Below, in pieces: positions 22,684 through 61,874 of a stretch of DNA of 64,000 nt. The stretch's first letter is position 1; each line of letters begins with the position of its first letter. The position numbers and the translations under genes were made by a program. Source of the DNA: Acidobacteriota bacterium (GTDB lineage: Bacteria > Acidobacteriota > UBA890 > WLXD01). Where the stretch lies: NCBI GenBank assembly GCA_029263295.1, contig JAJCXT010000090.1:390-64389 (forward strand), written 5' to 3'. Under the pieces are notes generated by a model. That model had not been told where the DNA came from and searched no databases. It worked only from the letters and a program-made list of their open reading frames with translations.

Positions 22684-22749
22684 CGGGAGATTAACACGTA
22701 AACTAGATAATGCGATTGTCGTATCTGTTTTAGAGGAGTATTCCGCCGT

Positions 22750-25332: not shown

Positions 25333-25333
25333 G

Positions 25334-26419: not shown

Positions 26420-27489
26420 TGGCCGATGACGAGCGCCCGGATCTCGACGCCGGGATGGTCTGTCCGATCCCGATCAGCGACTACCCCACCGTGCAACTGG
26501 CTCACGGTGGCGGCGGGCGGCTGAGCCAGATGCTGATCGACGACATGTTTGTCGCGGCGTTCGACAACCCAACGCTGGCGCAGTTGCACGACGGTGCGAT
26601 CCTCGGTATCAAGGCCGACCGGCTGGCGTTCTCGACCGACTCGTACGTCGTACACCCCCTCTTCTTCCCAGGCGGTGACATCGGCTCGCTCGCCATTCAC
26701 GGGACCGTCAACGACGTCGCCATGTGCGGCGCGCGACCGATTGCCATCTCGGCAGGGTTCATCATCGAGGAAGGGCTGCCGATGGCGGATCTCTGGCGCA
26801 TCGTCCAGTCCATGCGCAACGCCGCGAATCAGGCCGGCGTTCCCGTGGTCACCGGCGACACCAAGGTCGTGGATCGCGGCAAGGGCGACGGCATTTACAT
26901 CAACACGACCGGAATCGGGGTGATCGACAGAGGTATCGAGATTTCGCCGCAGAGGGCACGACCCGGGGATCTGGTACTGCTCAGTGGCGCGATCGCGGTG
27001 CACGGCATCACCATCATGTCGGTGCGTGAAGGCCTCGAATTCGAGACCAGGCTGGAGAGCGACTCGGCCGCCCTGCACACACTGACAGCCGCCGTGTTGG
27101 AGCGCGGCGGGCACGACGTTCACGTGCTGCGCGACCCCACCCGCGGCGGCGTGGCGAGCGCCCTCAACGAGATCGCGGGCCAGGCCGGCGTCGGCATCAA
27201 GATCGACGAGGAGCCGATCCCGATCGACGAGGAAGTGCGGGGCGCCTGCGAGATCCTCGGCTTCGACCCCCTGTATGTCGCCAACGAAGGCAAGTGCATC
27301 GCCATCGTCGCTCGCGAGTCGGCAGATGAGTTGCTGCAGACGATGCGCGGTCATCCGCTCGGCGCCCGCGCGGCGATCGTGGGTGAGGTGGTCGAGGAGC
27401 ACCCCGGCAAGGTCTTCCTGCGCAGTCGCATCGGCGGACTGCGAGTGGTGGACATGCTCAGCGGCGAACAGCTACCCCGCATCTGCTAG
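26419..27489 (+). CDS. hypE: Hydrogenase maturation protein HypE
   Basis: AIR-synthase-like fold motifs are present ([29 protein letters not shown]). The C-terminal PRIC motif is characteristic of HypE. The ATG shares one nt with the hypD TGA. Confidence 0.95.
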
Positions 27490-49263: not shown

Positions 49264-50895
49264 CTATTCGGGCTTCGCGCGAAGGACGAATTGCTGCTCT
49301 TCGCCAACCGCGATCTCGAAGTAAATCAGGTCGAAATCGCCGAGCTGGCTCCACCCCTCGAGCTGGTACTCGCCGGGAGTCAGCGGGATGCGGGTGCTGG
49401 TGTAGCTGATGGTGTCGTTCACCCAGCGACCGTCCTCGTTCTTTCGACTCAGGAACACCCGCGCGTCACGCCCCGCCGAACCATCGGCGTTCTGGTAGCT
49501 GATCGTGACGTGACCCACCGGGACCTCGATGACGAACTCCTGTTTTGGCTCAGTGGTAAGAACCAGACCCTCGTAGATATAGGGCGTGAGCTCCAGGAGC
49601 AGGTGAAGGTCGTACGTACCCGGCAACGCCCGGACGCCGTTGCGGCGATGCACCCGGTACGCCTTCTCGCCGTCCTGCCACAGCTCCGGGTTGGAGCGGA
49701 ACCAGACACCGCTGTTCGCCGAGACGATCTTGATCTGGGCGTGCACGGTCTGGACGAGCTCGAACAGGATCTCCTTGTGCTCGCCGGCGGCAAGCGTCTC
49801 GGAGACGGCCAGCTCGTTGTCGTCGTTCGGGTTGCTGCGAAATTCGTACGTACCAGGATCAACGTAGGCGCGATCGATGGAGCGGAAGCCGAAGACTTCC
49901 TCGTCCCCCGCGAACGCGGTAACGAACGATCCCCGACGCTCCTCGCCGAGTTCCACGAACTTCGCGGTTACGGATGGCGGTTCGGGAACCACGACCGCCA
50001 GATCGGTGTCGCCCGTGGCGGCCACCGTGGCCGTCGCGGTAACCGGCTGATAGAGATTGCCATTCCGGGTCCTGACCCCGACTGTGACCTCTACCTCGCC
50101 GGCCGGTACGCGATTGTGGCCGTTGCTCGACACCTCGATCGGCTCACCGCCTTCCCAGCGCGCCGTGCCCTGCACCCGCATCCGCTCGCCGGCTTCGTTG
50201 GTAGCAATGATGTCGAGGACTCGCCATTCTGCTTCGAGCTCGCTCGCCGGCGCCGTCGCCCCGATCGAGTCCTGACGAATCGACTCCAGACTGGCGATTA
50301 GCTCGTCCACCGACTGCGCATCGCGGTAAGGAGTGCCGGCGGCCTCGGAGATACAGGCCATCGCCGTGCGCTCTTTCTCCTCCAGACCCAGGCCAACCAC
50401 GTGCACACCGATGTTGATGTTCTTGTCGCGCCATTCCCGCATGAGCGCGCAAGGATCTTCTCCGCACGTCTCGATGCCATCCGATATCAGGATGATGTCG
50501 CCCGGGCGATCGCCGAAGTCTTCCAACGCGGCTCGCAGACTGCTCGAGATCGGCGTCCTGCCCTTCGGATTCACCTGATCGGCGAACTCCGACATGCGCG
50601 CAATCGCGTCCTGCGGAGGAGAGAACGGCACGACCAGTTCGATGTCGGAGCAGTCACCCTCGCGCCGGTGGCCATACACCCGGAAGGCCAGCTCCCGCCC
50701 GGTGTAGTCCTCGACATGGAAACTCTGGAGCACCTCGCGGGCGGCCGTGATCTTGTGCGTTCCGTCGGGCAACTGGCCCCACATCGAGCCAGAGCCATCG
50801 AGGATGATGTAGAGACCAGGCTCTGCATCCTGGGCTACGAGGGGCGCGCAGAGCGCGAGGGTGAGAACAACGGCAAGAACAGGTGCGCGCTTCAT
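49264..50895 (-). CDS. Secreted VWA-domain protein with C-terminal repeated beta-sandwich modules
   Basis: ATG 50895 gives signal peptide MKRAPVLAVVLTLALCAPLVAQ. MIDAS-type motif is ILDGSGSM. ISDGIETCG is present. The C-terminus has repeats with PGTYEF, PGTYDL and PGEYQL. Confidence 0.8.
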   Translation of the reverse strand: MKRAPVLAVVLTLALCAPLVAQDAEPGLYIILDGSGSMWGQLPDGTHKITAAREVLQSFHVEDYTGRELAFRVYGHRREGDCSDIELVVPFSPPQDAIARMSEFADQVNPKGRTPISSSLRAALEDFGDRPGDIILISDGIETCGEDPCALMREWRDKNINIGVHVVGLGLEEKERTAMACISEAAGTPYRDAQSVDELIASLESIRQDSIGATAPASELEAEWRVLDIIATNEAGERMRVQGTARWEGGEPIEVSSNGHNRVPAGEVEVTVGVRTRNGNLYQPVTATATVAATGDTDLAVVVPEPPSVTAKFVELGEERRGSFVTAFAGDEEVFGFRSIDRAYVDPGTYEFRSNPNDDNELAVSETLAAGEHKEILFELVQTVHAQIKIVSANSGVWFRSNPELWQDGEKAYRVHRRNGVRALPGTYDLHLLLELTPYIYEGLVLTTEPKQEFVIEVPVGHVTISYQNADGSAGRDARVFLSRKNEDGRWVNDTISYTSTRIPLTPGEYQLEGWSQLGDFDLIYFEIAVGEEQQFVLRAKPE

Positions 50896-51017
50896 CGGAC
50901 TCCCGGCGTCAGGACAAACAGGTCGCCGCGGGGGCCGCGCGGCGTGGGCCGGTCGATAATAGCGCGCTCGGCGGGTGAGACGGAGCGGCCTGGGGTTCTC
51001 GCGGGTCGAGGCCTTGA

Positions 51018-51058
51018 CACTATTCCAACTAGTGCCATAGGCTGAAGCCACTATTCCA
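51018..51058. repeat. 10-bp direct repeat pair in a divergent intergenic region
   Basis: cactattcca occurs at 51018-51027 and 51049-51058, 31 bp apart. The first copy overlaps a TTGACA hexamer (51014-51019). Confidence 0.3.
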
Positions 51059-51139
51059 TTTCGTGTTATAGCCGCGGAATCGCCACCGGCACCTATCCGC
51101 TGCCCCGCAACACGAAGCCGCCTTCCCCCCAAGGAACAG

Positions 51140-52549
51140 ATGATGATTCGTCGTCTGCTGATGATCGTAGGTCTCGCTATCGGTGTGGCGGCAACCGCTC
51201 TTGTGGCGCAGATCCTGGTGACGCCGCCAGCAACCTCGCCGATAGCCCAGGCCCAGCCAGCAACAACGTCACCTACCGCTCGGGCCGACGACCTGAAACA
51301 GCTGCGTCGATGGATGACTCTCGATCAGAGTTTCAGTGTCGAGGCACGCAGCGCGGCTGAAACGCTGCTCGCAGAGTACGAACGCGATGCCGGGGAGTAT
51401 ACGGATGCCGAGTTCTACATGGCGGTTCGACGGCTGGTAGGACTCGCCGAGAACGGCCATTCGAACGTCTCCACCGGGCCGATCTACCGTCGGTTCGGTC
51501 TGCTGCCGCTACGCACGTACTGGTTCTCGGACGGGCTGTACGTGGTCCGAGCGCGGCGCGACCACGAAGCACTGCTTGGCGCACGTATTACCGCGATCGA
51601 CGGCACGCCGGTGAAGGAACTCGAAGAGATCCTGATGCAGTATCACGGCGGTCACCGGGGCGCGTTTCGGCGCTACGCCGGCCTACCGCTGATGCTCTCG
51701 CCGCCGATCCTGCACGCGGTCGGCCTGGCTGCGAATCCCGAACGACTCGCGTTGGACATAGTGGGCGCCGACGGGGAACCCGCCGCGACGACGGTCGCAA
51801 TGCAGGCTGCCCCGGTCAGCGCAGGCTATGTACCGCCGTGGGTGCTGCTTCTGCCCATTCAGCTGCGAGGCGAGGATGAGGGCTGGCTGACCGTGCGCGA
51901 CCGCGACGCCCCGCTACCACTCTACTTTCGCGAAGGGGCGGAACGGTTTCGCTATCACCGCCTCGAGCGAGATGTGGCCTACATCCAGCTGCGCGCCAAC
52001 ATCGGCGTGGACGGCAACCGGTTGAAAGACTTCACCAAGGAGGTCAAGGAGCAGCTCGAACACAGCCCGCCACGCGCCATCATTCTCGACAATCGCCAGA
52101 ACGGTGGTGGCGACCTGACACGCTCCGCCGACTTCGCGCTCGAGTTGCCCGAACTGGTGCAGGACGGCGGCAAGGTGTACGTGCTCACGGATCAGGCCAC
52201 CTTCTCGGCTGGCATCTACACGTCGTTCTTCCCGAAAGCGGCCAACGCCGAGCGCACCGTGATCGTCGGTGAGCACGTCGGTGACTTCACGCGTTTCTGG
52301 GCCGAGGCCCCTGACGGTGTCCAGTTGCCCGACATTGGCACGCGGATCGGCTACGCCACGCAAATGCACGATATCGGTATCGGGTGCGATGACCGTACGA
52401 TTTGCCACCTCGCCAGGCGCGGCAAGTGGAACATCGCGGTCGGCTCGCTGGACCCTGATATCTCGGTGCCGACTACATTCGCCGACTTCGCCGTCGGGTT
52501 CGACCCGGTGTTGGAGCGCGCACTCCACGAGATCGCCGAGTCACCGTGA
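51140..52549 (+). CDS. S41-family (tail-specific/C-terminal processing type) serine peptidase
   Basis: Signal/TM N-terminus is present. IILDNRQNGGGDL and TDQATFSAG are typical S41 catalytic-domain motifs. Confidence 0.7.
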   Translation: MMIRRLLMIVGLAIGVAATALVAQILVTPPATSPIAQAQPATTSPTARADDLKQLRRWMTLDQSFSVEARSAAETLLAEYERDAGEYTDAEFYMAVRRLVGLAENGHSNVSTGPIYRRFGLLPLRTYWFSDGLYVVRARRDHEALLGARITAIDGTPVKELEEILMQYHGGHRGAFRRYAGLPLMLSPPILHAVGLAANPERLALDIVGADGEPAATTVAMQAAPVSAGYVPPWVLLLPIQLRGEDEGWLTVRDRDAPLPLYFREGAERFRYHRLERDVAYIQLRANIGVDGNRLKDFTKEVKEQLEHSPPRAIILDNRQNGGGDLTRSADFALELPELVQDGGKVYVLTDQATFSAGIYTSFFPKAANAERTVIVGEHVGDFTRFWAEAPDGVQLPDIGTRIGYATQMHDIGIGCDDRTICHLARRGKWNIAVGSLDPDISVPTTFADFAVGFDPVLERALHEIAESP

Positions 52550-52700
52550 AACGGCGCCGAAGATGTCCGCCTGACGCCCGGCGCCCAGTTTCGACCTCTT
52601 CAGCGCGGCGGTGAACACCGCATAGAAGCGGCGCCGGCCACCGGCGCGGCCAACGTAGTCACCCAAGAAGATATTCGACTCGTTGACCCGTTCGTCGTCG
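52541..52700 (-). pseudogene. 3'-terminal remnant of a BNR-propeller gene (paralog of 53490..55031)
   Basis: It encodes ...IFLGDYVGRAGGRRRFYAVFTAALKRSKLGAGRQADIFGAVSR. The paralog ends ...IFLGDYVGLAGSDDGFYAVFTAALKRSKLGAGRQSDIFGAASR. By eye I count about 7 mismatches in the first ~90 nt, including a 42-nt identical run. No propeller body lies upstream. Confidence 0.6.
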
Positions 52701-52838
52701 GCTTCCCCGAGCCACAGAAGTGGTGGGACGGGGCCCCATGCCACAGTAGAACCATACCAGTCATGGCGTCGGGTACGACCTGGGACATAGAATCGCGCCG
52801 TGAGCCTCACCACAGAAACTCGCCCATGAGGAGTCTGC

Positions 52839-53498
52839 ATGCGAAGTCTCGAAGAACGTCTGGCCAAGATCCGCGAAGGTGCCGCCGCGAGAATCCCCGC
52901 CGACGTCCTGGCTCAGATGCATGCCACGACCCAGGCACTTATTGATTCGCGCCTGCACGAGGACGCGCTGGGGGAGGGAGACACAGCGCCCGAGTTCGAG
53001 CTGTCGAACACCGAGGGCAACGTGGTGAGCCTCGCCAGCTTGCTGTCGCAGGGGCCAGCGGTGATCACGTTCTTCCGCGGCAACTGGTGACCCTATTGCA
53101 ACGCGGAGCTGGATGCTCTGAACGCTGTCTTGCCCGAGATCCAGAAGGCCGGGGCAACGCTGACGGCGATCTCGCCGCAGTTGCCCGAATTTGGACAGGA
53201 TCTGATCCGCCGACACCGCTTGGGGTTCGAGATCCTGCGCGATGAAGGGTTCGAAGTAGCCAACGCGTACGGACTCGAGTACAACCTGCCCGACGATCTC
53301 GCCGAGCTCTACGGCAACCTCGGCCTTCAACTGGACCAGAGCAACGGGGAACCCCGTTGGCGTCTGCCGTTGCCGGCCCGTTACATCGTCGGAACCGATG
53401 GCACGATCCAGTACGCGCGGGTGCATCCCGATTACACCACTCGGCCCGAGCCGGCTGAAACTGTCGAGGCGCTGGACGAGCTCAGGGAATCACCGTGA
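52839..53498 (+). CDS. Peroxiredoxin-like (PRX-like2 / AhpC-TSA) protein with in-frame TGA at the peroxidatic Cys position; candidate selenoprotein (or nonsense pseudogene)
   Basis: GAGGAG SD lies 5 nt before ATG 52839. ORFs 52839..53090 and 53130..53498 share one frame and are separated only by TGA 53088-53090. The read-through motif is FFRGNW-[TGA]-PYCNAELDAL, where the family has WCPYCN. G/C-ending codons continue downstream of the TGA. Confidence 0.6.
53098..53133 (+). other. Candidate bacterial SECIS-like stem-loop downstream of TGA 53088
   Basis: The lower stem pairs gcaa (53098-53101) with uugc (53130-53133). Next are two pairs, 53102-53103 with 53123-53124. The upper stem has 6 pairs, cggagc (53104-53109) with gcucug (53115-53120), including one G-U. 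The apical loop UGGAU (53110-53114) starts 19 nt after the UGA. Folded by hand only. Confidence 0.4.
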
Positions 53499-55031
53499 GG
53501 CAGCGCCGAAGATGTCCGACTGGCGCCCGGCGCCCAGTTTCGACCTCTTCAGCGCGGCGGTGAACACAGCGTAGAAGCCATCATCGCTTCCCGCGAGACC
53601 GACGTAGTCGCCCAGGAAGATGCTTAGATTCTGTCCGGCGCGCGCGGCAGCGCTGGCGTCGAACGACTTCCGTGTGACGCGCACACCCCGATCAAAGGTG
53701 CGGCCGCCGTCACGCGAACGGTTGACGTAGTAGTCCACGGCATTCGGCTGCGAACCGGCGTTGCGCTGGCTGTAGTAGCCGACGAGGAGTTCCCCGGCGG
53801 CATTGGTGGTCACGCCCACCGTCATCGCAGGCACCTGTGTGGGACCGTCGTTCACCCGCGCCGGAGTCGTCCAGGTGTCGCCACCATCGCGTGACACGAT
53901 CATCGCTGCCTGATCGACGCCAGTGAAGCGTCCATCCGACCACACCACGAAGAGATCGCCGCTGGTCGGATCCACATCGAAAGAGGGCAGAATCGAGCCA
54001 CTCCGGTACCCCGCGACGCCCAGCGCAAGATAGTCGGCGATCTTCACCGGCTTGCTGAAGCGCCGACCGCCGTTCTTGCTCTTGGCAAACCGCACCCCGA
54101 GGTTGGCATCGCCCGGACCGGCACCCGCCCAGATCGCGTAGAGCGTGCCGTCCAGCCCCACTCGCAGGATGACGCCGATATTGGTGCCATCCTCGATGAG
54201 CTTCTTGGGCTTGCTCCAGCTCACTCCCTGGTCGCTGGACCGAGCAACGACCATGCGCTGACCGACGAACCCACCGTTGCGCCACACGTTCACGTCCCAG
54301 CCAACGTAGGCGTTGCCACGATGCCGGCTACCCGCCATGGTGTCTGCAACCATGGAGTTCTTGTCATGGAAATCCAGCTCGTCGCGCACGAGCTCCACGG
54401 GCGGTCCCCAGGTGAAGCCGCCGTCCTTGGACACGCTCACAGCGATGGCGTTGTCGCCCGGAATCGTCCCCGAAACCAGCAGGCTGTTGTAGTACGCCAC
54501 GCCGTCCGGCCCGAACGCCGGCCACGGATCGGACGCTCGACTCCACTCGCCACCGTCGACGACGGTCAAGCCGGGCAACAGCGCGTCGGTCCACGTTCGG
54601 CCGCCATTGGTCGAGACCGCGACGCCGAGCGCGCGGGCTCCGCCGTCCGTGAAACGTGTTTCCTGCCACCCCGCGATCAGATGGTCCGAGTCCTCCGGGT
54701 TCACCGCGACATAAGGCTCGGTCTGGGTCTCTCCCTGCGCAGTGGGGAGAGTCGTCGGTGGCGCCTCGAGCACGTCCGTGCTGACGCGCTTGGGCTGGCG
54801 AAACTTGACCTTCGCACCAGCGCGCAGCGGTGGCACACCCACTGGATATGCAGCTCTGCGCTGGGCTAACGCCTCGCGGTTGCGCGGCAGCCAATAGGCT
54901 TCCGCATCGAATTCGCCCCCCGGGGCGTCGTGCGGGGCAGCCGCCTGCGGCACGAAAGCCGCGGCAAACCCCATCGCGGAGACGGCGACCGACGCCAGGA
55001 CAACAAGGGCGGAAACCTGCCGAGTACGCAT
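53490..55031 (-). CDS. Secreted BNR/Asp-box repeat beta-propeller protein (sialidase-fold), paralog 1
   Basis: AAGGTG SD precedes ATG 55031 and a signal peptide is present. Asp-box motifs are STNGGRTW, SKDGGFTW, SSDQGVSW, SRDGGDTW and SRDGGRTF. It overlaps the convergent Prx-like gene by 9 nt. Confidence 0.85.
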   Translation of the reverse strand: MRTRQVSALVVLASVAVSAMGFAAAFVPQAAAPHDAPGGEFDAEAYWLPRNREALAQRRAAYPVGVPPLRAGAKVKFRQPKRVSTDVLEAPPTTLPTAQGETQTEPYVAVNPEDSDHLIAGWQETRFTDGGARALGVAVSTNGGRTWTDALLPGLTVVDGGEWSRASDPWPAFGPDGVAYYNSLLVSGTIPGDNAIAVSVSKDGGFTWGPPVELVRDELDFHDKNSMVADTMAGSRHRGNAYVGWDVNVWRNGGFVGQRMVVARSSDQGVSWSKPKKLIEDGTNIGVILRVGLDGTLYAIWAGAGPGDANLGVRFAKSKNGGRRFSKPVKIADYLALGVAGYRSGSILPSFDVDPTSGDLFVVWSDGRFTGVDQAAMIVSRDGGDTWTTPARVNDGPTQVPAMTVGVTTNAAGELLVGYYSQRNAGSQPNAVDYYVNRSRDGGRTFDRGVRVTRKSFDASAAARAGQNLSIFLGDYVGLAGSDDGFYAVFTAALKRSKLGAGRQSDIFGAASR

Positions 55032-55109
55032 GTGGATCACCTTCATCCGACAACAGCGAGAGTGCTGAGAGGAACGGGACGCGAGGGGATCAACGCCACG
55101 GGCACACAC
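55032..55109 (-). repeat. Conserved 5' leader/promoter segment, copy 1 (shared with 56760..56838)
   Basis: The minus-strand sequence TAGTGTG...GCGTTGaTCCCCTCG...GCTGTTGTCGGATGAAgGTG is largely conserved with the segment upstream of paralog 2. Confidence 0.5.
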
Positions 55110-55214
55110 TACCTGTCCACGGCTGCCGGTGGGTAGTTCCCCGCCCGATGAAACCCCGACGATCGGCCGTCGGCGCCGATGTCATGATTTCTCGGCGACC
55201 AATCATGGCCCGTG

Positions 55215-56759
55215 TCAGCGCGAGACAGCGGCGAAGATGTCCGCCTGTCGACCGGGGCCGAGCTTGGACCTCTTGAGTGCCGCGGTGAACACTGCGTAGA
55301 AGCCGTCGACGCTGCCGGTGAGACCGACGTAATCACCCATGAAGATGCGGAACTCCCGTCCGCCAGCGAGAGCCGCTGCGCTGGCATCGAACGACTTACG
55401 AGTGACCCGCACACCCTCCTCAAAACTTCTACCCCCGTCGACCGAACGGTTGATGTAGTAGTCCACGACGGTGGCACCGAGATCCGCATTGCGCTGGGAG
55501 TAGTAGCCGACCGCGATCTCGCCCGCTCGGTTGGCGGCCACGCTGACGGTCATCGCGGGCACCAGCGCCGGGCCATCGTTAACACGGGCGGGAGTCGTCC
55601 AAGTATCGCCGCCGTCGCGCGACACGCTCATGGCCACCTGGTCCGCGCCGGTAAACCGCCCGTCCGACCAAACCACGAACAGATCGCCCGTGGTCGGATC
55701 GATGTCGAACGAGGGCAGGATAGCCCCTGAGCGAAAGCCGACGACCCCCCTCGAGAGTGCGTCGGCGACCTTGACCGCCTTGCTGAATCTGCGGCCACCA
55801 TTGGCGCTCTTGGCGAAGCGAATCGACAGGTTGGTGTCCACAGCATCGGCGCCCGCCCAAACCGCATAGAGGGTACCGTCCGGTCCCACGCGCATGACGA
55901 TGCCGATGTTAGTAGCGGACTGGATGAGTCGCTTGGGCTTGCTCCAGCTCTTGCCCTCATCGGTGGAGCGGGAGACCACCATCCGCTGCGCTCCGAACCC
56001 CCCGTTGCCGAGGACGTTGACGTCCCATCCCACGTACGCATTGCCGCGATGCCGGCTACCAGCCACGGTGTCCGCCACCATGGAGTTCTTGTCGTTGAAG
56101 TCGAAGTCGTCGCGGACGATCTCCACTGGCGCGCCCCATGTGAAACCACCATCCCGCGAGACACTCACTGCAATCGCGTTGCTCTCCAAATCGTCACCGG
56201 ACACCAACAGGCTGTTGCAGTAGGCCACCCCGTCCGGCCCAAACGTCGGCCACGGATCGGAGGCTCGATCCCACTCGCCGCCGTCAGCAATCGTCAACCC
56301 AGGGAGCAGCGCGTCGGTCCACCTGCGGCCGCCGCTGGTGGACACCGCCACGCCCAGCGAGCGCGCCCCGCCATCGGTGAAGCGTGTCTCTTGCCAGGCG
56401 GCGAGCAGGTGGTCCGGGTTCGCCGGATTGACCGCCACGTAGGGTTCGGTCTGGGTCTCTGCCTGAGCGGTAGACAGGGTCGCCGGCGGAACTCCGAGGA
56501 TGTCCGTGCTGACTCGCTTGGGCTTGCGAAACTTGACCTTCTCGCTAACGTGGGGCGGCGGCGCACCGACTGGATACGCAGATCTGCGCTGGGCCAGCGC
56601 CGCGCGATGACGTGGCAGCCAATAGGCCTCGGCATCGAACTCGCCACCCGGGGCGTCGTGCGGGGCGGCCGGACGCGGCGCCAGGGCGGCCGCAAGTCCT
56701 ACCGCCGAGGCGGCGATTGAAGCCAGGACGACGAGCGCGGAAGCGTGCCGAATGCGCAT
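55215..56759 (-). CDS. Secreted BNR/Asp-box repeat beta-propeller protein, paralog 2
   Basis: The architecture and motifs match paralog 1 (STSGGRRW, SRDGGFTW, STDEGKSW, SRDGGDTW, SVDGGRSF). AAAGGTGG SD precedes ATG 56759. Confidence 0.85.
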   Translation of the reverse strand: MRIRHASALVVLASIAASAVGLAAALAPRPAAPHDAPGGEFDAEAYWLPRHRAALAQRRSAYPVGAPPPHVSEKVKFRKPKRVSTDILGVPPATLSTAQAETQTEPYVAVNPANPDHLLAAWQETRFTDGGARSLGVAVSTSGGRRWTDALLPGLTIADGGEWDRASDPWPTFGPDGVAYCNSLLVSGDDLESNAIAVSVSRDGGFTWGAPVEIVRDDFDFNDKNSMVADTVAGSRHRGNAYVGWDVNVLGNGGFGAQRMVVSRSTDEGKSWSKPKRLIQSATNIGIVMRVGPDGTLYAVWAGADAVDTNLSIRFAKSANGGRRFSKAVKVADALSRGVVGFRSGAILPSFDIDPTTGDLFVVWSDGRFTGADQVAMSVSRDGGDTWTTPARVNDGPALVPAMTVSVAANRAGEIAVGYYSQRNADLGATVVDYYINRSVDGGRSFEEGVRVTRKSFDASAAALAGGREFRIFMGDYVGLTGSVDGFYAVFTAALKRSKLGPGRQADIFAAVSR

Positions 56760-56838
56760 CTGGACCACCTTTCATCCGACAACAGCAAGGGCTGCCGGGA
56801 GGAGCGGAACCGAGGGGACCAACGCCGCAATCCCACAC
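56760..56838 (-). repeat. Conserved 5' leader/promoter segment, copy 2
   Basis: See 55032..55109. The duplication extends about 75-80 nt beyond the start codon. Confidence 0.5.
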
Positions 56839-56948
56839 TAGCCGTTCACAACAGACCAGGGAAGTCCACCGCGACGAAAAGCGGACAATCGGGTCGCCAT
56901 TGCCGCTGTCATGGCTTGAGTGGCTATCGTGGACATAGAATCTGCGCT

Positions 56949-57959
56949 ATGAAATTCGCTAGCGCTCGACAGATTCGGCACCGATCCTCCCACCTTCCAC
57001 TGCCCCGAGTGCGGCGGCTTGGCGCGATGATCGCAATCGCGTTGACCGCCTCGCTGCTCAACTTCGCGGGTGACGACAGCGCCGCCCACGCGCAGGAGGC
57101 GACCGCCGGCCGCGTCGAAACCATGCCGCTCGACGGAACGCTGACCTCTTGGGGTCGACTCGGTGGCGTGTCCGTGGACGCTCTCGGATTCGTCTACTCC
57201 TCCGCCTTCGGTGAAGAGGTGTGGAAGATCGCCCCCGACGGCACCGTGTCGTTACTCGCCGACGGCTTCTACGGCGCCTCCGGCAACGCGATCGACCTCA
57301 ATGGCGACCTGTTGCAGGCAGGCTTCTTCAGCAACTCCATCCACCGCATCAGTCGCACCGGTGAGGTCGCCCTGGTTGCCGATCAGGGCCTGGCTGGCCC
57401 CGTAGCAATCGCCGTGGGCAGCGACGGCGTGCTCTACGTCTGCTCATGCAACGACAACACCATCACCCGAGTGGAACGCGACGGCACCGCCGGTACGTTC
57501 GCTACTTCCGACCTGTTCGCATGCCCGAACGGCATTACTTTCGATGACCAGGGTGCGCTGTACGTCGTCAGCTTCTCCAATGACCACATGGTCCGTGTCG
57601 ATGCAGAGGGCCATGCCGAACTGTTCGCCACCATCGAGCCGGTGGGCGGCCATTCCGAGCAGGCGATCGCTGCGCGAGTCGCAGGCAACGCCCACGTGGC
57701 ATTCGCCGGCGGCAACTTCTTCGTGACGAAGATCAAGACCAACTCCCTGTGGAGGGTGACGCCGGATGGGGCCGTCTCCCATTTCGCCGGCACATTCGTC
57801 TACGGTCAGGACGACGGCCCGTTGATGGAGGCCACGTTCGCGGCGCCCAACGGTATCGCCGCGCGGGGCGGGACCCTCTACCTGAACGACATGACCGGCA
57901 CCTGGGCGCGGACGGCCCGAGCCTCTCTGGCCATCCGCAAGGTGATCCTGCCGCGCTAG
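56949..57959 (+). CDS. Secreted NHL / SMP-30-gluconolactonase-LRE-like beta-propeller protein
   Basis: Repeats are GPVAIAVGSDGVLYVCS, CPNGITFDDQGALYVVS and APNGIAARGGTLYLND. The start could be ATG 56949 or ATG 57027. Confidence 0.7.
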   Translation: MKFASARQIRHRSSHLPLPRVRRLGAMIAIALTASLLNFAGDDSAAHAQEATAGRVETMPLDGTLTSWGRLGGVSVDALGFVYSSAFGEEVWKIAPDGTVSLLADGFYGASGNAIDLNGDLLQAGFFSNSIHRISRTGEVALVADQGLAGPVAIAVGSDGVLYVCSCNDNTITRVERDGTAGTFATSDLFACPNGITFDDQGALYVVSFSNDHMVRVDAEGHAELFATIEPVGGHSEQAIAARVAGNAHVAFAGGNFFVTKIKTNSLWRVTPDGAVSHFAGTFVYGQDDGPLMEATFAAPNGIAARGGTLYLNDMTGTWARTARASLAIRKVILPR

Positions 57960-58074
57960 GTCGCATACGAGCGCTTGCCGACAGATCCATGGAGCCGTCC
58001 CTTCCGTAGCCCGGCTTCGAGCGAGTACAGTCCGTTTGCACCCGCCTGAAACCTGCCCCTCGGAGAAACCGTCG

Positions 58075-58485
58075 ATGTCGTCTCGCGCGCCCGAGCTGCT
58101 GCGCTGCGCCCCCTACCTTCCCGTGGCGGACCTCGAAGCCGCAACGTCGCACTACGACGAAGTGCTGGGATTCCAGGTCGACTATCTGGGCGGAGCGCCG
58201 CCGCACTTTGCCATCCTCAGTCGCGACGGCCTGGCGCTGATGCTGCGTGCCGTCGCCGATGCTGACAGCATCTGCCCGAACGACCGACAAGGCGGAACCT
58301 GGGACGTTTTCTACTGGGTGACCGACGCGGCCGCGTTGTATGAAGAGTTCTGCTCCCGTGGCGCTGACGTCGTCTACGAGCCGACGTTTCAGCCGGAGTA
58401 CGCGATGAAGGAGTTCGCCGTCCGCGATCTCGATGGTCACGTGCTCGGGTTCGGCCAGAGCGTTCGCGAAGGTGGAAGCAACTGA
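58075..58485 (+). CDS. Glyoxalase/bleomycin-resistance (VOC) family protein
   Basis: YLPVADLEAATSHYDEVLGFQV and EFAVRDLDGHVLGFGQ are typical VOC beta-alpha-beta-beta-beta modules. Confidence 0.75.
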   Translation: MSSRAPELLRCAPYLPVADLEAATSHYDEVLGFQVDYLGGAPPHFAILSRDGLALMLRAVADADSICPNDRQGGTWDVFYWVTDAAALYEEFCSRGADVVYEPTFQPEYAMKEFAVRDLDGHVLGFGQSVREGGSN

Positions 58486-60272
58486 TGTTCGCGAGACTAT
58501 GCCGCGCCGCCGCCATGATTGCGCTCGCCGCGACGATCTCGCCGCTCGGCGCGGCGCAGGAACGACAAACCCCGCGCCTGCGGTACCTCACAACGGCCAG
58601 TCAGCCGGGTCCGGTGGCGCAACGGGATCCGCTGGGCGTGCCATCGCCCGACGGACGCTGGCTGGCTACGCACTCCGGCCTGACGCTGAACGTCGAACCA
58701 CTCTCCGGAAGTGGCCCGGTGCAGCAACTGGGCGGCGGAGAACTACGGCGGCTCCATCTCACCTGGCGGCACGACTCGCAGATCCTCGTGGTGCGCGAAG
58801 CAAACCGCGAGCGCACCTGGTTTGACTGGCGGGAGTACGACACCGAGACCGGAGTACGCAGGCAGCTGTGGAGCGATCGTCCGGAGTTCACAGCGACAGG
58901 TGGCCGCACGGCCGCGCGCGACGATCTGCTCGAACTCCGATTCGCCGCCGACGGCGCCGCCGCGGGGCTGGTGCAGCGCGACGACGGCCGGCAGTTGTGG
59001 ATCTTCGACGACACGGGCGCGGTGCTCGAGACCATCGGCGAACCAGGAGCTTTCAGCAACGTCGCCTGGACCCCCGAAGGAGGCGTCGCCTGCGTCGACG
59101 CGACCAGCGGGAAGCGTCTGCTGAGCCTCGACTGTGGCCGCGCGCCCGGCCGGCCTGCCCTCGGCGAAGTTCGCGGGCCCATTGCGTTCGACGCGTCCGG
59201 CCGCGCGTTCGTGGGCCGGCCCAACGACGGTGGCACCCTGGATCTCTGGCGCCTCGACCTGGCCACCGACACGGCTGAACGGCTGACCGAGTTCGCCCGC
59301 GACACGTACGCGCCGTATGTCCTGAACGACGGGCGCGTGATCTTCAAGCTGCAGCAGTACTCGACAACGATTGCGCGCGTAGATGCCGCTGGCGGCACGC
59401 CCGTAGCCGTGACGACGTTCCAGTCGGAGACACCGTCGTGGGACTGGGCCGGCGAGCGTATCGCCTTCACGTTCGGTAGCTGGCGCCGCTCTATCGACGA
59501 TGCCGAGTATCCCGACATCGCTCAGCACGTGGGCACTGTGAGCGCAGTCAACGGCGTCGCCGCAGCACCTGAAGTCGTCGTGCGACGGTCCTATTCTGAA
59601 GACCAGGGCATGCACTGGTCGCCCAACGGCCGCTGGATCGTGTTGCACTCGCACGCCAACGGCACCGACGACCTCTGGCTGCAGCCGGCGGACGGCTCGG
59701 CCAGTGCCAAACCGATCACCAGTGGCGGCAACGAAACCGGCTGGCCGCGCTTTTCTCCCGACGGGCGATGGATCGTTTACCCGACCGACTACCGCGGCCC
59801 CGAAGGCGACCGCCTCGGCCTGCTGCAGTTGATCGGCTTCGACCAGGAGCTCGGCGAGGTCACGCGGCCACGTCGCGAGATCGAGCTAATCGGCTTCGAC
59901 GGCCAGGCGATCTTCGCCGAGTTCGCGCCGGACTCGCGCACGATCTACTTCGAGGCCATGCACGGAGTCGGTGAGCGCGCCATCTGGCGCGTCGACCGTG
60001 ACGGCGGTGAGCCGGAGTTGATCCATCGTTTCGCCAGTCCACAGTGGTTCAGCGGCATCAGTCTGTCCCCCGACGCTGCCAGCGTCGTGTACGTCGCGCC
60101 GGCCCCCGATGGACGCCTGCAGCTGTTCAGCCTGCCTGTTGCCGGGGGGGAACCCACCCAGATCACGTTCGACCCGAGCGATAAGACGCACCCGTCATGG
60201 TCACCCCGCGGCGACCAGATCGCCTTCACCGTATTCCGCTATCTGGCTCACTTCTGGATGCTCGAGTCCTAG
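58485..60272 (+). CDS. Secreted PD40/WD40-like beta-propeller protein (TolB-like)
   Basis: The ATG shares one nt with the preceding TGA. A signal peptide is present. PD40 motifs are WSPNGRWIVLHS, FSPDGRWIVYPT, FAPDSRTIYF, LSPDAASVVYV and WSPRGDQIAFT. Confidence 0.8.
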   Translation: MFARLCRAAAMIALAATISPLGAAQERQTPRLRYLTTASQPGPVAQRDPLGVPSPDGRWLATHSGLTLNVEPLSGSGPVQQLGGGELRRLHLTWRHDSQILVVREANRERTWFDWREYDTETGVRRQLWSDRPEFTATGGRTAARDDLLELRFAADGAAAGLVQRDDGRQLWIFDDTGAVLETIGEPGAFSNVAWTPEGGVACVDATSGKRLLSLDCGRAPGRPALGEVRGPIAFDASGRAFVGRPNDGGTLDLWRLDLATDTAERLTEFARDTYAPYVLNDGRVIFKLQQYSTTIARVDAAGGTPVAVTTFQSETPSWDWAGERIAFTFGSWRRSIDDAEYPDIAQHVGTVSAVNGVAAAPEVVVRRSYSEDQGMHWSPNGRWIVLHSHANGTDDLWLQPADGSASAKPITSGGNETGWPRFSPDGRWIVYPTDYRGPEGDRLGLLQLIGFDQELGEVTRPRREIELIGFDGQAIFAEFAPDSRTIYFEAMHGVGERAIWRVDRDGGEPELIHRFASPQWFSGISLSPDAASVVYVAPAPDGRLQLFSLPVAGGEPTQITFDPSDKTHPSWSPRGDQIAFTVFRYLAHFWMLES

Positions 60273-60345
60273 CGCCGAGCTTCCCACACCGACATCATGA
60301 AACAGCACCGCGGCCGCTGATTGCCATCACTCAGGGACACGAATA

Positions 60346-61095
60346 ATGAAATCGCTACCGATCCGCTACCTGCTGACGGCTGTGGCTATCGCCGCCGCCC
60401 TGATGCCGTCTGCACGCGCGCTCGCTGGCACCGGCGGCGCAACCGAAGACCGCGTGCTGAAGCTCGCGGATGGAGGCGACCTGCGCTACGGGCTGCACGT
60501 TCCCGCGGCGGCCAGCGACGGCCCCGTCCCGCTGATCATCGGCCTGCACTACGGCTGGGGCGGCGGCGGGAGCCCACCCCCGTACTACGGCCGCGACTAC
60601 ATGAACATTCTGGCGCGCCCCGGGTTCGCCGGGCTAGACGCGATCATCATCGCGCCGGATTGTCCGGGGAGAGGCTGGGGCGACCCGCGCAGCGACGCCG
60701 CGGTGATGGAGCTGGTCGAGAGCATCCGCGCCGAGTTCCGGATCGACCCCGACAGGATCGTGGTCACCGGCTTCAGCCTTGGCGGCATGGGAACTTGGTC
60801 GTTCGCGGCTCGACATCCCGACCTGATATCGGCGGCAGTTCCCGTGGCGGGACGGCCAACGGACGAGATGGTGAGCGGCTGGGGAGACACTCCGGTGTTC
60901 GCCATCCATGGCGACCAGGACGACGTGGTCCCGATCGGCCCCACGCGTGCAGCCATTGCCACGCTGAGCGAGCGGGGCGTCGTGGCGGAACTGGTCGAGC
61001 TCCAGGGCTTCGTTCACTTCCAGACTCCCCGCTACGCCCAGCCGCTGACCGCCGCGGTTCCCTGGCTCGAACGAATCTGGTCGTCGATGCGATAG
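60346..61095 (+). CDS. Secreted alpha/beta hydrolase (carboxylesterase / PHB-depolymerase-like)
   Basis: A signal peptide is present. The nucleophile elbow is GFSLGGMG. Downstream HGDQDDVVP and a His region are present. Confidence 0.75.
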   Translation: MKSLPIRYLLTAVAIAAALMPSARALAGTGGATEDRVLKLADGGDLRYGLHVPAAASDGPVPLIIGLHYGWGGGGSPPPYYGRDYMNILARPGFAGLDAIIIAPDCPGRGWGDPRSDAAVMELVESIRAEFRIDPDRIVVTGFSLGGMGTWSFAARHPDLISAAVPVAGRPTDEMVSGWGDTPVFAIHGDQDDVVPIGPTRAAIATLSERGVVAELVELQGFVHFQTPRYAQPLTAAVPWLERIWSSMR

Positions 61096-61114
61096 CGCTT
61101 CAGAACCCGCCGAT

Positions 61115-61648
61115 TCAACGTGAGCAACTGGGAAGGAGCTCGTACGCGAGCGCGCCTTCCGCCTGCGCGAGCGCCTGGATGTTCATACATGGGTAGTTGA
61201 AGAAGGTCTCGTGCTCGACCACATGATCTTCCTCGAGAATCAGGATCGTCTGGTACGGCACATCAAACCGCATCGTCTTGCCGTCCCCGGAGATCAGGCC
61301 GCGCAGCGTGCCGGAATAGGTCACGACACCATTCATGGCGCCGAAGCGGCCGACCACGTTGATCTCTTCGATCTCCACGCCGTCCCAGGCGGCCGGGATC
61401 TGGACCATCAGATCGTCAACCCCGACTATTTCCATGCCGAAGGCTCGGTCACGCATGACCGTCTCCTGGGTCCAGTAGTTCTTCAACGATTCCATGTTCC
61501 GGTGAAAGAACTCGTTCATATAGAGGTCCGCCATGGCGAGGTTCGCTGCCGCCTCCGCGACATCGTTCACCACGGACTCACGCGTCTGTCCCGCGGCCGG
61601 CAACGGCACGATGGCGACCATGAGAGCTGCCCACAACATCGTCTTCAT
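61115..61648 (-). CDS. Secreted NTF2/SnoaL-like fold protein
   Basis: ATG 61648 gives signal peptide MKTMLWAALMVAIVPLPAAG. The fold assignment rests on size and pattern only. Confidence 0.5.
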   Translation of the reverse strand: MKTMLWAALMVAIVPLPAAGQTRESVVNDVAEAAANLAMADLYMNEFFHRNMESLKNYWTQETVMRDRAFGMEIVGVDDLMVQIPAAWDGVEIEEINVVGRFGAMNGVVTYSGTLRGLISGDGKTMRFDVPYQTILILEEDHVVEHETFFNYPCMNIQALAQAEGALAYELLPSCSR

Positions 61649-61874
61649 CGACTGTTGCTGTCCTTCGGAGTTTCTTGGGGATGTCCGCGATCGGTGTACG
61701 TTGTCCGCATGCAAGTACGGCGAGGCTCGCCGATAGTTCCGTCTGCCATCGCGATTGGGACGCAGCCCTGGCGACGCCTGGATCGGCCACCCCGTTGCTT
61801 GAGACTCACGGGGGATGTTGCTTGAATGGCGGGTCCATACACGTCGGACAACCCCAATCGAACGGGAGGTAAAG

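What the first reader, a model, noticed from the sequence alone, without database searches (positions are those of the whole stretch)
52839..53498. Peroxiredoxin-like gene with TGA replacing the first Cys of its WCPYC motif, followed by a SECIS-like hairpin: candidate selenoprotein
The ORF track splits this locus into 52839..53090 and 53130..53498. Both pieces are in the same frame and only one stop, TGA 53088-53090, separates them. Read-through gives a 219-residue protein with the layout I know for PRX-like2/AhpC-TSA proteins: an N-terminal helical segment, then F-F-R-G-N-W-X-P-Y-C-N-A-E-L. The family has W-C-P-Y-C-N at that point, so the TGA falls exactly on the peroxidatic/redox Cys and yields a U-x-x-C motif. 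This is the classic position for Sec in thioredoxin-fold selenoproteins. Codons downstream of the TGA keep ending in G or C, and the family pattern continues (LVAISPQ-type strand, C-terminal domain). This argues against an old pseudogene. A hand-folded stem-loop at 53098-53133 has a 6-bp upper stem and a UGGAU apical loop starting 19 nt after the UGA, which fits bacterial SECIS geometry. Caveat: TGA is one substitution from TGC, so a recent nonsense mutation or a base-call error is a live alternative.
Basis: partly seen in the sequence, partly recalled or inferred. Interest (0 to 1): 0.72.

Follow-up and report, generated by a model that had tools for sequence, protein, structure and literature searches.

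The report
Selenocysteine-containing peroxiredoxin-like redox gene
This is an intact gene for a peroxiredoxin-like redox enzyme whose internal TGA "stop" almost certainly encodes selenocysteine, directed by a small RNA hairpin just downstream; it belongs to a selenoprotein family described since 2004-2005, and its main practical interest is that public annotations mis-call it.

Summary
Window 52839..53498 (+) is one reading frame interrupted only by TGA 53088-53090. That codon sits exactly where homologues have the first Cys of W-C-P-Y-C-N.

- **Not an error or pseudogene.** The same TGA occurs in every orthologue recovered from independent assemblies (83% down to 43% protein identity) and in at least 120 reference genomes. 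dN/dS after the TGA is 0.10-0.17.
- **SECIS hairpin.** CGGAGC-UGGAU-GCUCUG (53104-53120) meets all four published bacterial SECIS criteria.
- **Matched control.** The core stem is fully paired in 57/71 Sec-form genes of this subfamily, against 2/43 Cys-form genes that encode the same E-L-x-A-L peptide. The Sec forms have forced synonymous codons (GCU, GAG, CUG).
- **No code reassignment.** TGA is an ordinary stop in 23/46 window genes.
Against true peroxiredoxins, Sec aligns with the Thr/Ser of T/SxxC and the second Cys aligns with the peroxidatic Cys. The motif is a thioredoxin-like UxxC.
- **Not testable here.** The window has no selA/B/C/D, and the rest of the genome was out of reach.

Verdict: a new, mis-annotated member of the known "Prx-like thiol:disulfide oxidoreductase" selenoprotein family. 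Confidence is high and novelty is low.

The parts
52828..52833 (+). Shine-Dalgarno-like GAGGAG, 5 nt upstream of the ATG start
   Evidence: Read directly from the sequence. There is no comparable element upstream of the internal TTG at 53130.
52839..53498 (+). Complete coding sequence of a 219-residue Prx-like (AhpC-TSA / PRX_like2-type) selenoprotein, read through the TGA at codon 84
   Evidence: Orthologues start at the same Met (MR[SGT]LEERL) and are collinear throughout. dN/dS is 0.23-0.26 before the TGA and 0.10-0.17 after it.
53088..53090 (+). UGA codon 84, read as selenocysteine (the U of the U-P-Y-C redox motif)
   Evidence: It aligns with the invariant first Cys of WCPYCN. TGA is present at this codon in all 9 distinct orthologue sequences recovered and in at least 120 reference genomes.
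53097..53099 (+). TGC codon 87: the resolving Cys of UxxC, which is also the position homologous to the peroxidatic Cys of true peroxiredoxins
   Evidence: Invariant column C87. It aligns with the Cys of S-P-V-C in BCP 2cx3.
53104..53120 (+). Bacterial SECIS core hairpin: stem CGGAGC (53104-53109) / GCUCUG (53115-53120), apical loop UGGAU (53110-53114). It also encodes A-E-L-D-A-L of helix alpha1.
   Evidence: Fold -9.1 to -10.5 kcal/mol. Across 70 Sec-form sequences 87.4% of cells pair, against 32-54% when the partners are slid. The core stem pairs in 57/71 Sec-form against 2/43 Cys-form genes. It meets the loop, stem, G-in-loop, spacing and MFE criteria of PMC13188914.

Best explanation
Window 52839-53498 encodes a cytoplasmic, thioredoxin-fold, peroxiredoxin-like thiol:disulfide oxidoreductase with selenocysteine at residue 84.

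Proposed mechanism:
1. Translation starts at ATG 52839.
2. When the ribosome reaches UGA 53088-53090, the mRNA hairpin at 53104-53120 (6-bp stem, UGGAU loop with the conserved GG, 19 nt after the UGA) recruits SelB-GTP-Sec-tRNA(Sec). Sec is inserted instead of terminating.
3. The same nucleotides are then translated as A-E-L-D-A-L, the first turns of the active-site helix.
4. In the protein, U84 sits at the N-terminus of that helix and acts as the nucleophile of a U-P-Y-C motif. It cycles through a selenenylsulfide with C87 while reducing a disulfide or a peroxide/sulfenic substrate.

What is shown and what is inferred:
- Shown here: frame continuity, the Sec/Cys column, conservation of the TGA, purifying selection on both halves, the Sec-specific hairpin with forced synonymous codons, and the Prx/Trx fold of a Cys homologue.
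- Inferred: SelB/tRNA-Sec dependence, the selenenylsulfide chemistry, the cytoplasmic location (no signal peptide was evident, but this was not tested formally), and the physiological substrate, which is unknown for this family.
For: 1. A single in-frame TGA; AhpC-TSA domain at E=7e-26.
2. The TGA column is the first Cys of the invariant WCPYCN motif in Cys homologues from Streptomyces, Pseudoalteromonas and others.
3. TGA sits at the identical codon in orthologues from independent assemblies: L001, L002-5, L006, L011 and L012 (75-83% identity) and L008, L009 and L010 (54-43%). Three of these were published with 'W' at the site because the gene caller used code 4.
My own estimate of the chance expectation is about 0.3.
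5. dN/dS against close orthologues is 0.10-0.17 downstream of the TGA, at dS 0.8-1.2. The 11 codons after the TGA have pN=0 with pS 0.26-0.52, so that stretch is translated in frame.
6. Matched control within the same subfamily, Sec-form against Cys-form:
   - core stem fully paired: 57/71 against 2/43
   - at least 5 of 6 pairs: 56/71 against 0/43
   - Ala codon GCU: 58/66 against 4/35
   - Glu codon GAG: 65/65 against 11/22
   - Leu codon CUG: 64/70 against 16/39
   - MFE: -9.05 against -5.17 kcal/mol
   Over all motif hits, MFE is -9.65 against -6.29 kcal/mol, Mann-Whitney p=1e-15.
7. Other subfamilies have different hairpin sequences at the same place that keep their pairing: CUCCG..CGGAG, CCUCG..CGAGG, CAGCU..AGCUG.
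8. All four bSECIS criteria from PMC13188914 are met: 5-nt loop, 6-bp stem, G at loop positions 2-3, 19-nt spacing, MFE of -7.5 kcal/mol or lower.
9. TGA is a normal stop for 23/46 window genes.
10. There is an SD before the ATG and none before the internal TTG.
11. Prx-like UxxC proteins are an established selenoprotein family (PMC1088965, PMC2398784, PMC1794560, PMC13188914).
Against: - No selA, selB, selD or tRNA-Sec is present in the 64-kb window. There are no tRNAs at all. All ORFs of 330 aa or more were scanned. The AIRS protein is HypE, not SelD.
- The rest of the genome could not be reached and the organism is not identified.
- The hairpin's folding energy is not better than shuffled controls.
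- Covariation within the subfamily is modest because the stem sequence is nearly invariant: only 2 pairs show a double change.
- The Sec and Cys sets come from different collections (genomes against metagenomes).
- There is no experimental evidence of Se incorporation for this family member.
Confidence: 0.93

Rival explanations
1. Pseudogene, recent nonsense mutation (TGC to TGA) or base-call error: the TGA is a genuine stop that inactivates a formerly Cys-containing gene.
For: TGA is one substitution from TGC, and gene callers split the locus into two ORFs.
Against: The same TGA is found in 9 distinct orthologue sequences from independent projects (Logan, JGI, ENA, NCBI), down to 43% protein identity, and in at least 120 species genomes. 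dN/dS downstream of the TGA is 0.10-0.17 at near-saturated dS. There are no other frame disruptions.
Confidence: 0.01
2. Split gene: the TGA terminates an 83-residue N-terminal polypeptide, and the C-terminal 122 residues are made separately from the internal TTG at 53130. The two pieces would either assemble non-covalently or only one would be functional.
For: An ORF with a TTG start exists 39 nt after the TGA, and public gene calls list 121-122-aa products.
Against: The 11 codons directly after the TGA (P-Y-C-N-A-E-L-D-A-L-N) are identical at the protein level in the close orthologues L002, L006 and L011 despite synonymous changes (pN=0, pS 0.26-0.52), so this stretch, which lies before the TTG, is translated in frame. 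There is no SD before the TTG. The split would cut the CxxC active site in two and discard the resolving Cys. The downstream hairpin is specific to TGA forms and fits a SECIS.
Confidence: 0.02
3. The UGA is read through, but not as selenocysteine. It could be Trp, Cys or Gly, inserted by near-cognate or suppressor decoding or by a locally recoded UGA, in an organism that lacks Sec machinery.
For: Sec machinery was not found in the window and could not be checked genome-wide. Some public gene calls translate the codon as W.
Against: TGA terminates 23 of 46 genes in the window, so there is no code-4/25-type reassignment. The 'W' calls are artefacts of code-4 gene models on TGA codons. The site is an invariant catalytic Cys in homologues, so Trp or Gly would destroy the redox motif. 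A SECIS-type hairpin with the conserved loop G is maintained by selection only in TGA forms. Many of the lineages named among the hits (Desulfobacterota, Acidobacteriota, Rubrobacter) belong to phyla reported to hold selenoproteins (PMC1794560).
Confidence: 0.03

Closest known systems
Prx-like thiol:disulfide oxidoreductase selenoprotein family ('Prx-like protein', 'Prx-like 1'; PF00578, UxxC). Predicted bacterial selenoproteins in Geobacter, Desulfotalea, Syntrophus and marine metagenomes (PMC1088965, PMC2398784, PMC1794560, PMC13188914).
   Same: PF00578 domain, a thioredoxin-like UxxC motif in place of the TxxU/TxxC of true Prx, an in-gene bSECIS directly after the UGA, many Cys-form homologues, and Sec/Cys forms interleaved in the tree (at least 13 switches). 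The window's subfamily includes Desulfocapsaceae, Desulfocapsa and Desulfopila genes at 41-47% identity. These are the lineages for which the family was described.
   Different: This subfamily is about 215-220 aa with a two-helix N-terminal extension of about 45 residues. No curated NCBIfam model reaches its cut-off.
BCP/PrxQ-type peroxiredoxins (for example A. pernix BCP 2cx3, S. solfataricus Bcp4 3hjp)
   Same: They are the best sequence match (E=1.5e-10) and the best structural match (TM 0.83-0.90 normalised to the target). The Cys homologous to the peroxidatic Cys is conserved (C87).
   Different: The Prx signature PxxxT/SxxC reads RxxxUxxC here: the Pro is an invariant Arg and the Thr/Ser is Sec/Cys. 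There is also an additional N-terminal helical extension. Peroxidase activity is therefore not assured.
Thioredoxin-like CxxC oxidoreductases of the TlpA/ResA type, and the Geobacter 'thioredoxin family protein' 3hdc (WCPYC)
   Same: The identical W-C-P-Y-C motif in 3hdc, and WCxxC in ResA. Sec aligns with the N-terminal nucleophilic Cys.
   Different: The ResA NCBIfam model scores 46 against a cut-off of 170. ResA and TlpA are membrane-anchored and extracytoplasmic, whereas this protein has a hydrophilic helical N-terminus. The structural match is weaker than to BCP.
Sec-containing peroxiredoxin (TxxU) and the SelL / SelL-related redox proteins (UxxU / CxxC)
   Same: AhpC-TSA superfamily selenoproteins with an in-gene SECIS (in bacteria).
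   Different: In Sec-Prx the Sec is at the peroxidatic position (TxxU), three residues later than here (PMC1088965). The NCBIfam SelL_rel_redox model scores 34.9 against a cut-off of 120.

Membership tests
Bacterial selenoprotein gene (Sec-UGA plus bSECIS) | In-frame UGA aligned with Cys in homologues | tested here: met
   The TGA column is the invariant first Cys of WCPYCN.
Bacterial selenoprotein gene (Sec-UGA plus bSECIS) | UGA conserved in orthologues, with coding constraint on both sides | tested here: met
   TGA in 9 distinct orthologue sequences and at least 120 genomes. dN/dS is 0.23-0.26 upstream and 0.10-0.17 downstream.
Bacterial selenoprotein gene (Sec-UGA plus bSECIS) | bSECIS model: 3-9 nt apical loop, 4-16 bp upper stem, G in the first two loop positions, 16-37 nt from UGA to loop, MFE of -7.5 kcal/mol or lower (PMC13188914, Fig. 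2 legend) | tested here: met
   Loop UGGAU (5 nt, G at positions 2-3), 6-bp stem, 19-nt spacing, -9.1 to -10.5 kcal/mol.
Bacterial selenoprotein gene (Sec-UGA plus bSECIS) | The hairpin is maintained by selection in Sec forms and not in Cys forms | tested here: met
   Core stem paired in 57/71 against 2/43. GCU/GAG/CUG codon bias appears only in Sec forms. Over all hits p=1e-15.
Bacterial selenoprotein gene (Sec-UGA plus bSECIS) | selA, selB, selC (tRNA-Sec) and selD present in the same genome | not testable with these tools
   They are absent from the 64-kb window. The remainder of the contig and genome was not retrievable.
Bacterial selenoprotein gene (Sec-UGA plus bSECIS) | Selenium incorporated at the UGA position (75Se labelling or mass spectrometry) | not testable with these tools
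   Experimental.
Prx-like thiol:disulfide oxidoreductase selenoprotein family (PF00578, UxxC) | AhpC-TSA (PF00578) domain above the gathering score | tested here: met
   91 bits against a cut-off of 26.
Prx-like thiol:disulfide oxidoreductase selenoprotein family (PF00578, UxxC) | [quoted passage not shown] | tested here: met
   W-U-P-Y-C. The definition is from PMC1088965.
Prx-like thiol:disulfide oxidoreductase selenoprotein family (PF00578, UxxC) | Sequence homology to the published exemplar (WP_010940744.1, Geobacter sulfurreducens) | not tested
   The exemplar sequence is not retrievable with these tools. Indirect support: Desulfocapsaceae and Desulfopila Sec forms fall in the same subfamily.
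Canonical peroxiredoxin (BCP/PrxQ) | Active-site signature PxxxT/SxxC, with the Thr/Ser and Pro conserved | tested here: not met
   In the alignment to 2cx3, Pro corresponds to the invariant R80 and Ser corresponds to U84. Only the Cys is kept, as C87.
Canonical peroxiredoxin (BCP/PrxQ) | Prx fold | tested here: met
   The AF2 model of Cys homologue P0009 (pLDDT 93.5) matches 3hjp, 5epf and 2ywn best, TM 0.83-0.90 normalised to the target. The model is of a homologue with 47-51% identity, not of the window protein itself.
SelL-related redox protein (NCBIfam NF040769) | Score at or above the curated cut-off | tested here: not met
   34.9 bits against a cut-off of 120.
ResA/TlpA thiol-disulfide oxidoreductase | Score at or above the curated cut-off of the NCBIfam ResA model | tested here: not met
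   46.3 bits against 170. The WCxxC motif is shared.

The most novel reading that the evidence does not exclude
The roughly 215-aa subfamily with the N-terminal two-helix extension may be a distinct Sec-using clade that is not yet separately catalogued. Its SECIS core (GAGCUGGNNGCUC) doubles as the codons for the conserved E-L-x-A-L start of the active-site helix, and it stays almost identical at the nucleotide level across at least 8 phyla, while Sec and Cys forms switch at least 13 times in the tree. If so, this would be a dual-coding SECIS/active-site cassette that is either spread by horizontal transfer or re-created repeatedly from a peptide motif that is already close to a SECIS. It would make a tidy natural system for studying how Cys-to-Sec conversions arise.
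Probability: 0.25. Interest if true: 0.4.

Novelty: new member of a known kind. Interest (0 to 1): 0.25.

Why it matters
Scientifically the gain is modest. The finding adds one more well-supported member, from an unidentified high-GC bacterium, to a selenoprotein family that is predicted with high confidence but has never been characterised biochemically.

The practical point is annotation. Every public gene call for this gene and its orthologues is wrong: it is either split into 83-aa and 121-aa fragments or translated with Trp at the Sec site by a code-4 gene model. The active-site residue is therefore lost from protein databases.

The Sec-versus-Cys codon contrast (GCU/GAG/CUG forced only in TGA forms) is a clear example of an RNA structure constraining synonymous sites inside a coding region. 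It could serve as a simple classifier for this subfamily. The gene also implies that the source organism decodes Sec, which can be tested once its genome is available.

Tried and rejected
- **Thermodynamic test of the hairpin against shuffles.** Not significant (z=-1.09 and -0.09). I judged it uninformative for a 17-nt element and replaced it with comparative tests.
- **Rfam.** No family matched at the gathering threshold over the whole window, and only noise appeared at E up to 10 around the site.
- **tRNA-Sec.** None in the window (no tRNAs at all) and none in the 120 of the 131 fetched loci L001-L132 that were scanned; L005, L007 and L123-L132 were left out.
- **Sec machinery in the window.** All ORFs of 330 aa or more were scanned and none is SelA or SelB. 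The AIRS/AIRS_C protein at 26419-27489 could have been SelD, but it is HypE (TIGR02124, 468 bits against a cut-off of 252; the selD model scores 33 against 125). The class-V aminotransferase at 3578-4984 is SufS-like, below all cut-offs, and not diagnostic.
- **A second selenoprotein gene in the window.** Two screens, one for coding frames continuing across a TGA and one for UxxC/CxxU contexts, found only this locus.
- **Recovering the rest of the 73.6-kb contig and the assembly accession.** Exact-protein look-ups failed three times. The cluster look-up gave no names.
- **Organism identification with the NiFe hydrogenase large subunit.** The best named hits are only about 80% identical (KSB1, Acidobacteriota). 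A TIGR03436 'acidobact_VWFA' hit is a weak hint. The taxon is left unresolved.
- **Covariation within the subfamily.** Weak, because the stem is nearly invariant. The argument therefore rests on the Sec/Cys contrast and on cross-subfamily differences in the hairpin.
- **Genetic-code reassignment (code 4/25).** Rejected, because TGA is the commonest stop codon in the window.
Full report
**1. The observation**

Window 52839-53498 on the + strand translates as 219 sense codons with one internal stop, TGA at 53088-53090. The local context is F-F-R-G-N-W-*-P-Y-C-N-A-E-L. The mechanical ORF list splits the locus into 52839..53090 (83 aa) and 53130..53498 (122 aa, TTG start) in the same frame. GC3 is coding-like on both sides of the TGA, at 0.80 and 0.77. 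With Cys in place of the stop, the protein matches Pfam AhpC-TSA (E=7e-26, 91 bits, cut-off 26) and Redoxin. No NCBIfam model reaches its cut-off: ResA scores 46/170, BCP 41/140 and SelL-related 35/120. A GAGGAG Shine-Dalgarno sequence lies 5 nt before the ATG, and nothing comparable precedes the internal TTG.

**2. The TGA is conserved, not accidental**

In the protein search, the closest database entries (77-83% identity) were all 121-aa C-terminal fragments. This suggested that the orthologues are interrupted at the same place. Their contigs come from independent Logan, JGI and ENA assemblies (L001-L006, L011, L012), and all carry TGA at the identical codon. Three more distant full-length database proteins (P0002, P0003, P0011; 54-43% identity) appeared to have Trp in that column. 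Their DNA (L008, L009, L010) has TGA, so the 'W' comes from a code-4 gene model.

My own composition-free estimate of the chance expectation is about 0.3. The genomes span Acidobacteriota, Desulfobacterota, Gemmatimonadota, Planctomycetota, Rubrobacter, Acidimicrobiia, Methylomirabilota/Rokubacteria, Dormibacterota and others. About half of them belong to the same subfamily as the window gene (40-56% identity over about 210 residues). The best named match listed is a Gemmatimonadota MAG at 56%.

**3. The TGA column**

In an alignment with Cys-containing homologues (Streptomyces, Pseudoalteromonas and metagenomic proteins, annotated 'peroxiredoxin-like family protein'), the TGA falls on the first Cys of an invariant W-C-P-Y-C-N motif.

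**4. Both halves are translated**

Nei-Gojobori estimates against the close orthologues L002, L006 and L011 give dN/dS of 0.23-0.26 before the TGA and 0.10-0.17 after it, at dS 0.6-1.2. The 11 codons immediately after the TGA lie before the putative internal TTG start. They have no amino-acid change at all against these orthologues despite synonymous differences (pN=0, pS 0.26-0.52). This excludes a pseudogene, a sequencing error, and independent initiation of the 3' part.

**5. The hairpin**

The stem is CGGAGC (53104-53109) / GCUCUG (53115-53120), and the loop is UGGAU (53110-53114), starting 19 nt after the UGA. It folds at -9.1 to -10.5 kcal/mol.

The comparative evidence is strong. As a matched control I scanned metagenomes for the same motif with TGY in place of TGA, then restricted both sets to the window's subfamily: 71 distinct Sec forms and 43 Cys forms, with similar GC (0.56 and 0.58). 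The results:

| Measure | Sec forms | Cys forms |
|---|---|---|
| Four core pairs (GAGC/GCUC) all formed | 57/71 | 2/43 |
| At least 5 of 6 pairs formed | 56/71 | 0/43 |
| Ala codon GCU | 58/66 | 4/35 |
| Glu codon GAG | 65/65 | 11/22 |
| Leu codon CUG | 64/70 | 16/39 |
| Mean MFE of the 30-nt segment (kcal/mol) | -9.05 | -5.17 |

The peptide E-L-x-A-L is common in both sets, so the difference lies in synonymous codon choice. Over all motif hits (131 Sec, 120 Cys) the MFE is -9.65 against -6.29 kcal/mol, Mann-Whitney p=1e-15.

Shared ancestry cannot explain this result. Synonymous sites are near saturation even among close orthologues, and Sec and Cys forms are interleaved in a neighbour-joining tree, with at least 13 switches.

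Formal pair counting on 70 Sec-form sequences gives 87.4% paired cells, against 32-54% when the 3' partners are slid. Covariation is only modest because the stem is almost invariant. The outer pairs vary as UG/CG/UA and GU/AU. Other subfamilies carry different sequences at the same position that keep their pairing: CUCCG-AGUUR-CGGAG, CCUCG-AGUUA-CGAGG, CAGCU-GGUC-AGCUG and GAGCUGC-GGUCAUU-GCAGCUC.

The published bacterial SECIS model requires a 3-9 nt loop, a 4-16 bp upper stem, a G in the first two loop positions, 16-37 nt between the UGA and the loop, and an MFE of -7.5 kcal/mol or lower (PMC13188914). The window hairpin meets all of these.

**6. Alternatives**

Genome-wide reassignment of TGA is excluded, because TGA terminates 23 of 46 predicted genes in the window. 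The pseudogene, error and split-gene readings are excluded by sections 2 and 4. Non-Sec read-through cannot be formally excluded without the genome's sel genes. It is unlikely, given the Sec-specific SECIS and the catalytic nature of the site.

**7. Sec machinery**

The window contains no tRNA genes at all and no Rfam match. Every ORF of 330 aa or more was scanned, and none is SelA or SelB. The AIRS/AIRS_C protein at 26419-27489 could in principle have been SelD. It is HypE (TIGR02124, 468 bits against a cut-off of 252; the selD model scores 33 against 125). It sits in a NiFe-hydrogenase/hypFDE cluster.

No tRNA-Sec lies beside the gene in the 120 related loci scanned out of L001-L132. No second selenoprotein candidate exists in the window. 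Attempts to recover the rest of the 73.6-kb contig or its assembly accession failed. The organism remains unidentified: the best named hydrogenase hits are about 80% identical to KSB1 and Acidobacteriota proteins, and one protein hits an 'acidobact_VWFA' model. This defining feature therefore remains untested.

**8. What kind of protein it is**

By sequence, the nearest solved structures are A. pernix BCP/PrxQ (2cx3, E=1.5e-10), a Geobacter 'thioredoxin family protein' with the identical WCPYC motif (3hdc), and ResA. In the BCP alignment, 'F-F-P-A-A-F-S-P-V-C' pairs with 'F-F-R-G-N-W-U-P-Y-C'. From this:
- the Prx peroxidatic Cys corresponds to the second Cys (C87);
- Sec corresponds to the Ser/Thr of T/SxxC;
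- the Prx Pro corresponds to an invariant Arg (R80).

The motif is therefore a thioredoxin-like UxxC on a Prx-type scaffold. This matches how the literature defines the 'Prx-like' selenoproteins (PMC1088965).

An AlphaFold model of the nearest Cys homologue (P0009, 47-51% identical, pLDDT 93.5) matches BCP/PrxQ structures best (3hjp, TM 0.90 normalised to the target), then AhpE, then ResA. The CxxC sits at the N-terminus of a long helix, and residues 3-41 form an extra two-helix N-terminal extension.

The most likely chemistry is nucleophilic attack by the selenolate of U84, resolved by C87 through a selenenylsulfide. This is an inference from CxxC/UxxC oxidoreductases. Whether the physiological substrate is a disulfide or a peroxide is unknown.

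**9. Comparison with the literature**

'Prx-like protein / Prx-like thiol:disulfide oxidoreductase' (PF00578, UxxC) is an established, computationally predicted selenoprotein family:
- 22 sequences in the Sargasso Sea survey (PMC1088965);
- 225 'Prx-like 1' sequences in the GOS survey (PMC2398784);
- present in Geobacter, Desulfotalea and Syntrophus genomes (PMC1794560);
- listed as 'predicted with high confidence' in a 2026 review (PMC13188914).

Frequent Sec/Cys interconversion is also a documented theme (PMC1794560). The window gene is a new, unannotated member of this known kind. I could not align it directly with the published exemplar.

**10. Genomic context**

The upstream S41-like peptidase gene (51140-52549) is syntenic with L002-L004. 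The downstream glyoxalase, PD40/DPPIV, alpha/beta-hydrolase and M55 peptidase genes (58036-63053) correspond to the block downstream of the gene in L001; L002-L004 show the alpha/beta-hydrolase directly downstream. In the window lineage, two tandem BNR_2 genes and a Vgb-lyase/NHL gene (53490-57959) are inserted between the Prx-like gene and that block.

A segment of about 170 nt is duplicated at 52520-52690 and 53469-53640. It holds the last codons of a + strand gene ('...ESP*') plus the 3' end of a BNR_2 gene. As a result, a gene-less BNR relic lies upstream of the Prx-like gene, and both the S41-like and the Prx-like proteins end in ESP, unlike their orthologues. This points to local recombination. 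It does not affect the Sec site.

**11. Verdict**

Confidence that this is a genuine Sec-encoding gene with a functional bSECIS is about 0.93. Novelty is low (a new member of a known kind) and interest is about 0.25. The value lies mainly in correcting the annotation and in the clean example of SECIS-imposed synonymous constraint.

Noticed in passing
window 52520-52690, 53469-53640 (and, weaker, 55215-55362): A segment of about 170 nt is duplicated 949 nt apart. It contains the last ~10 codons of a + strand gene plus the last ~49 codons of a minus-strand BNR_2 gene. The copy at 52541-52688 is a relic with no gene body. Because of the duplication, both the S41-like peptidase and the Prx-like protein end in '...ESP*', unlike their orthologues (...ELSA*, ...ELSG*). 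This suggests local recombination or gene conversion around the Prx-like gene.
   Followed up: partly
window 53490-57959: Two tandem BNR_2 (sialidase-like) paralogues (53490-55109 and 55215-56768, minus strand) and a Vgb-lyase/NHL-repeat gene (56745-57959) lie between the Prx-like gene and the glyoxalase / PD40 / hydrolase / M55 block. In relatives L001 and L002 a member of that block (the alpha/beta-hydrolase gene) follows the Prx-like gene directly. This is a lineage-specific insertion.
   Followed up: partly
L001-L012 (orthologue contigs); database proteins P0002, P0003, P0004-P0008, P0011: Public gene calls for this selenoprotein are systematically wrong. They are either split into 83-aa and 121-aa ORFs, or translated with Trp at the Sec codon because a code-4 gene model was chosen for a short contig. 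In L010 the code-4 call also reads through the true TGA stop (ctx ...ER-TGA-TAT-TAA).
   Followed up: yes
window 19711-27489: A [NiFe]-hydrogenase gene cluster: large subunit 19711-21426 (-), small subunit 21426-22547 (-), HypF 22750-25071, HypD 25229-26419, HypE 26419-27489 (TIGR02124, 468 bits). The large subunit is 97% identical to a JGI metagenome protein and about 80% identical to KSB1 and Acidobacteriota proteins.
   Followed up: partly
window 2643-3491 (-) and 12986-13873 (-): A PEP mutase family protein and a phosphonate-binding periplasmic protein, which hint at phosphonate metabolism or transport in this organism.
   Followed up: no
window 37165-39357 (-): A 730-aa protein with no Pfam hit that matches NCBIfam TIGR03436 'acidobact_VWFA' just above its cut-off (85.9 against 81.25). 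This is a weak hint that the source organism is Acidobacteriota-like.
   Followed up: no
window 51018-51040 and 51049-51071: An AT-rich 23-nt direct repeat (CACTATTCCA...) 31 nt apart in a 65% GC genome, just upstream of the S41-like gene start (51140). It could be an operator or promoter element. The 622-aa minus-strand ORF called across it (49264-51132, no family hit) may start further downstream.
   Followed up: no
L013-L132 (reference-genome loci): Other subfamilies with the same F-x-R-G-x-W-U-P-[YF]-C-N motif (30-38% identity to the window protein) carry quite different SECIS hairpins at the same offset, for example CUCCG-AGUUR-CGGAG with the doubly compensated variant CCUCG-AGUUA-CGAGG (mainly Acidobacteriota), and CAGCU-GGUC-AGCUG (Rubrobacter, Acidimicrobiia, Dormibacterota).
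   Followed up: partly
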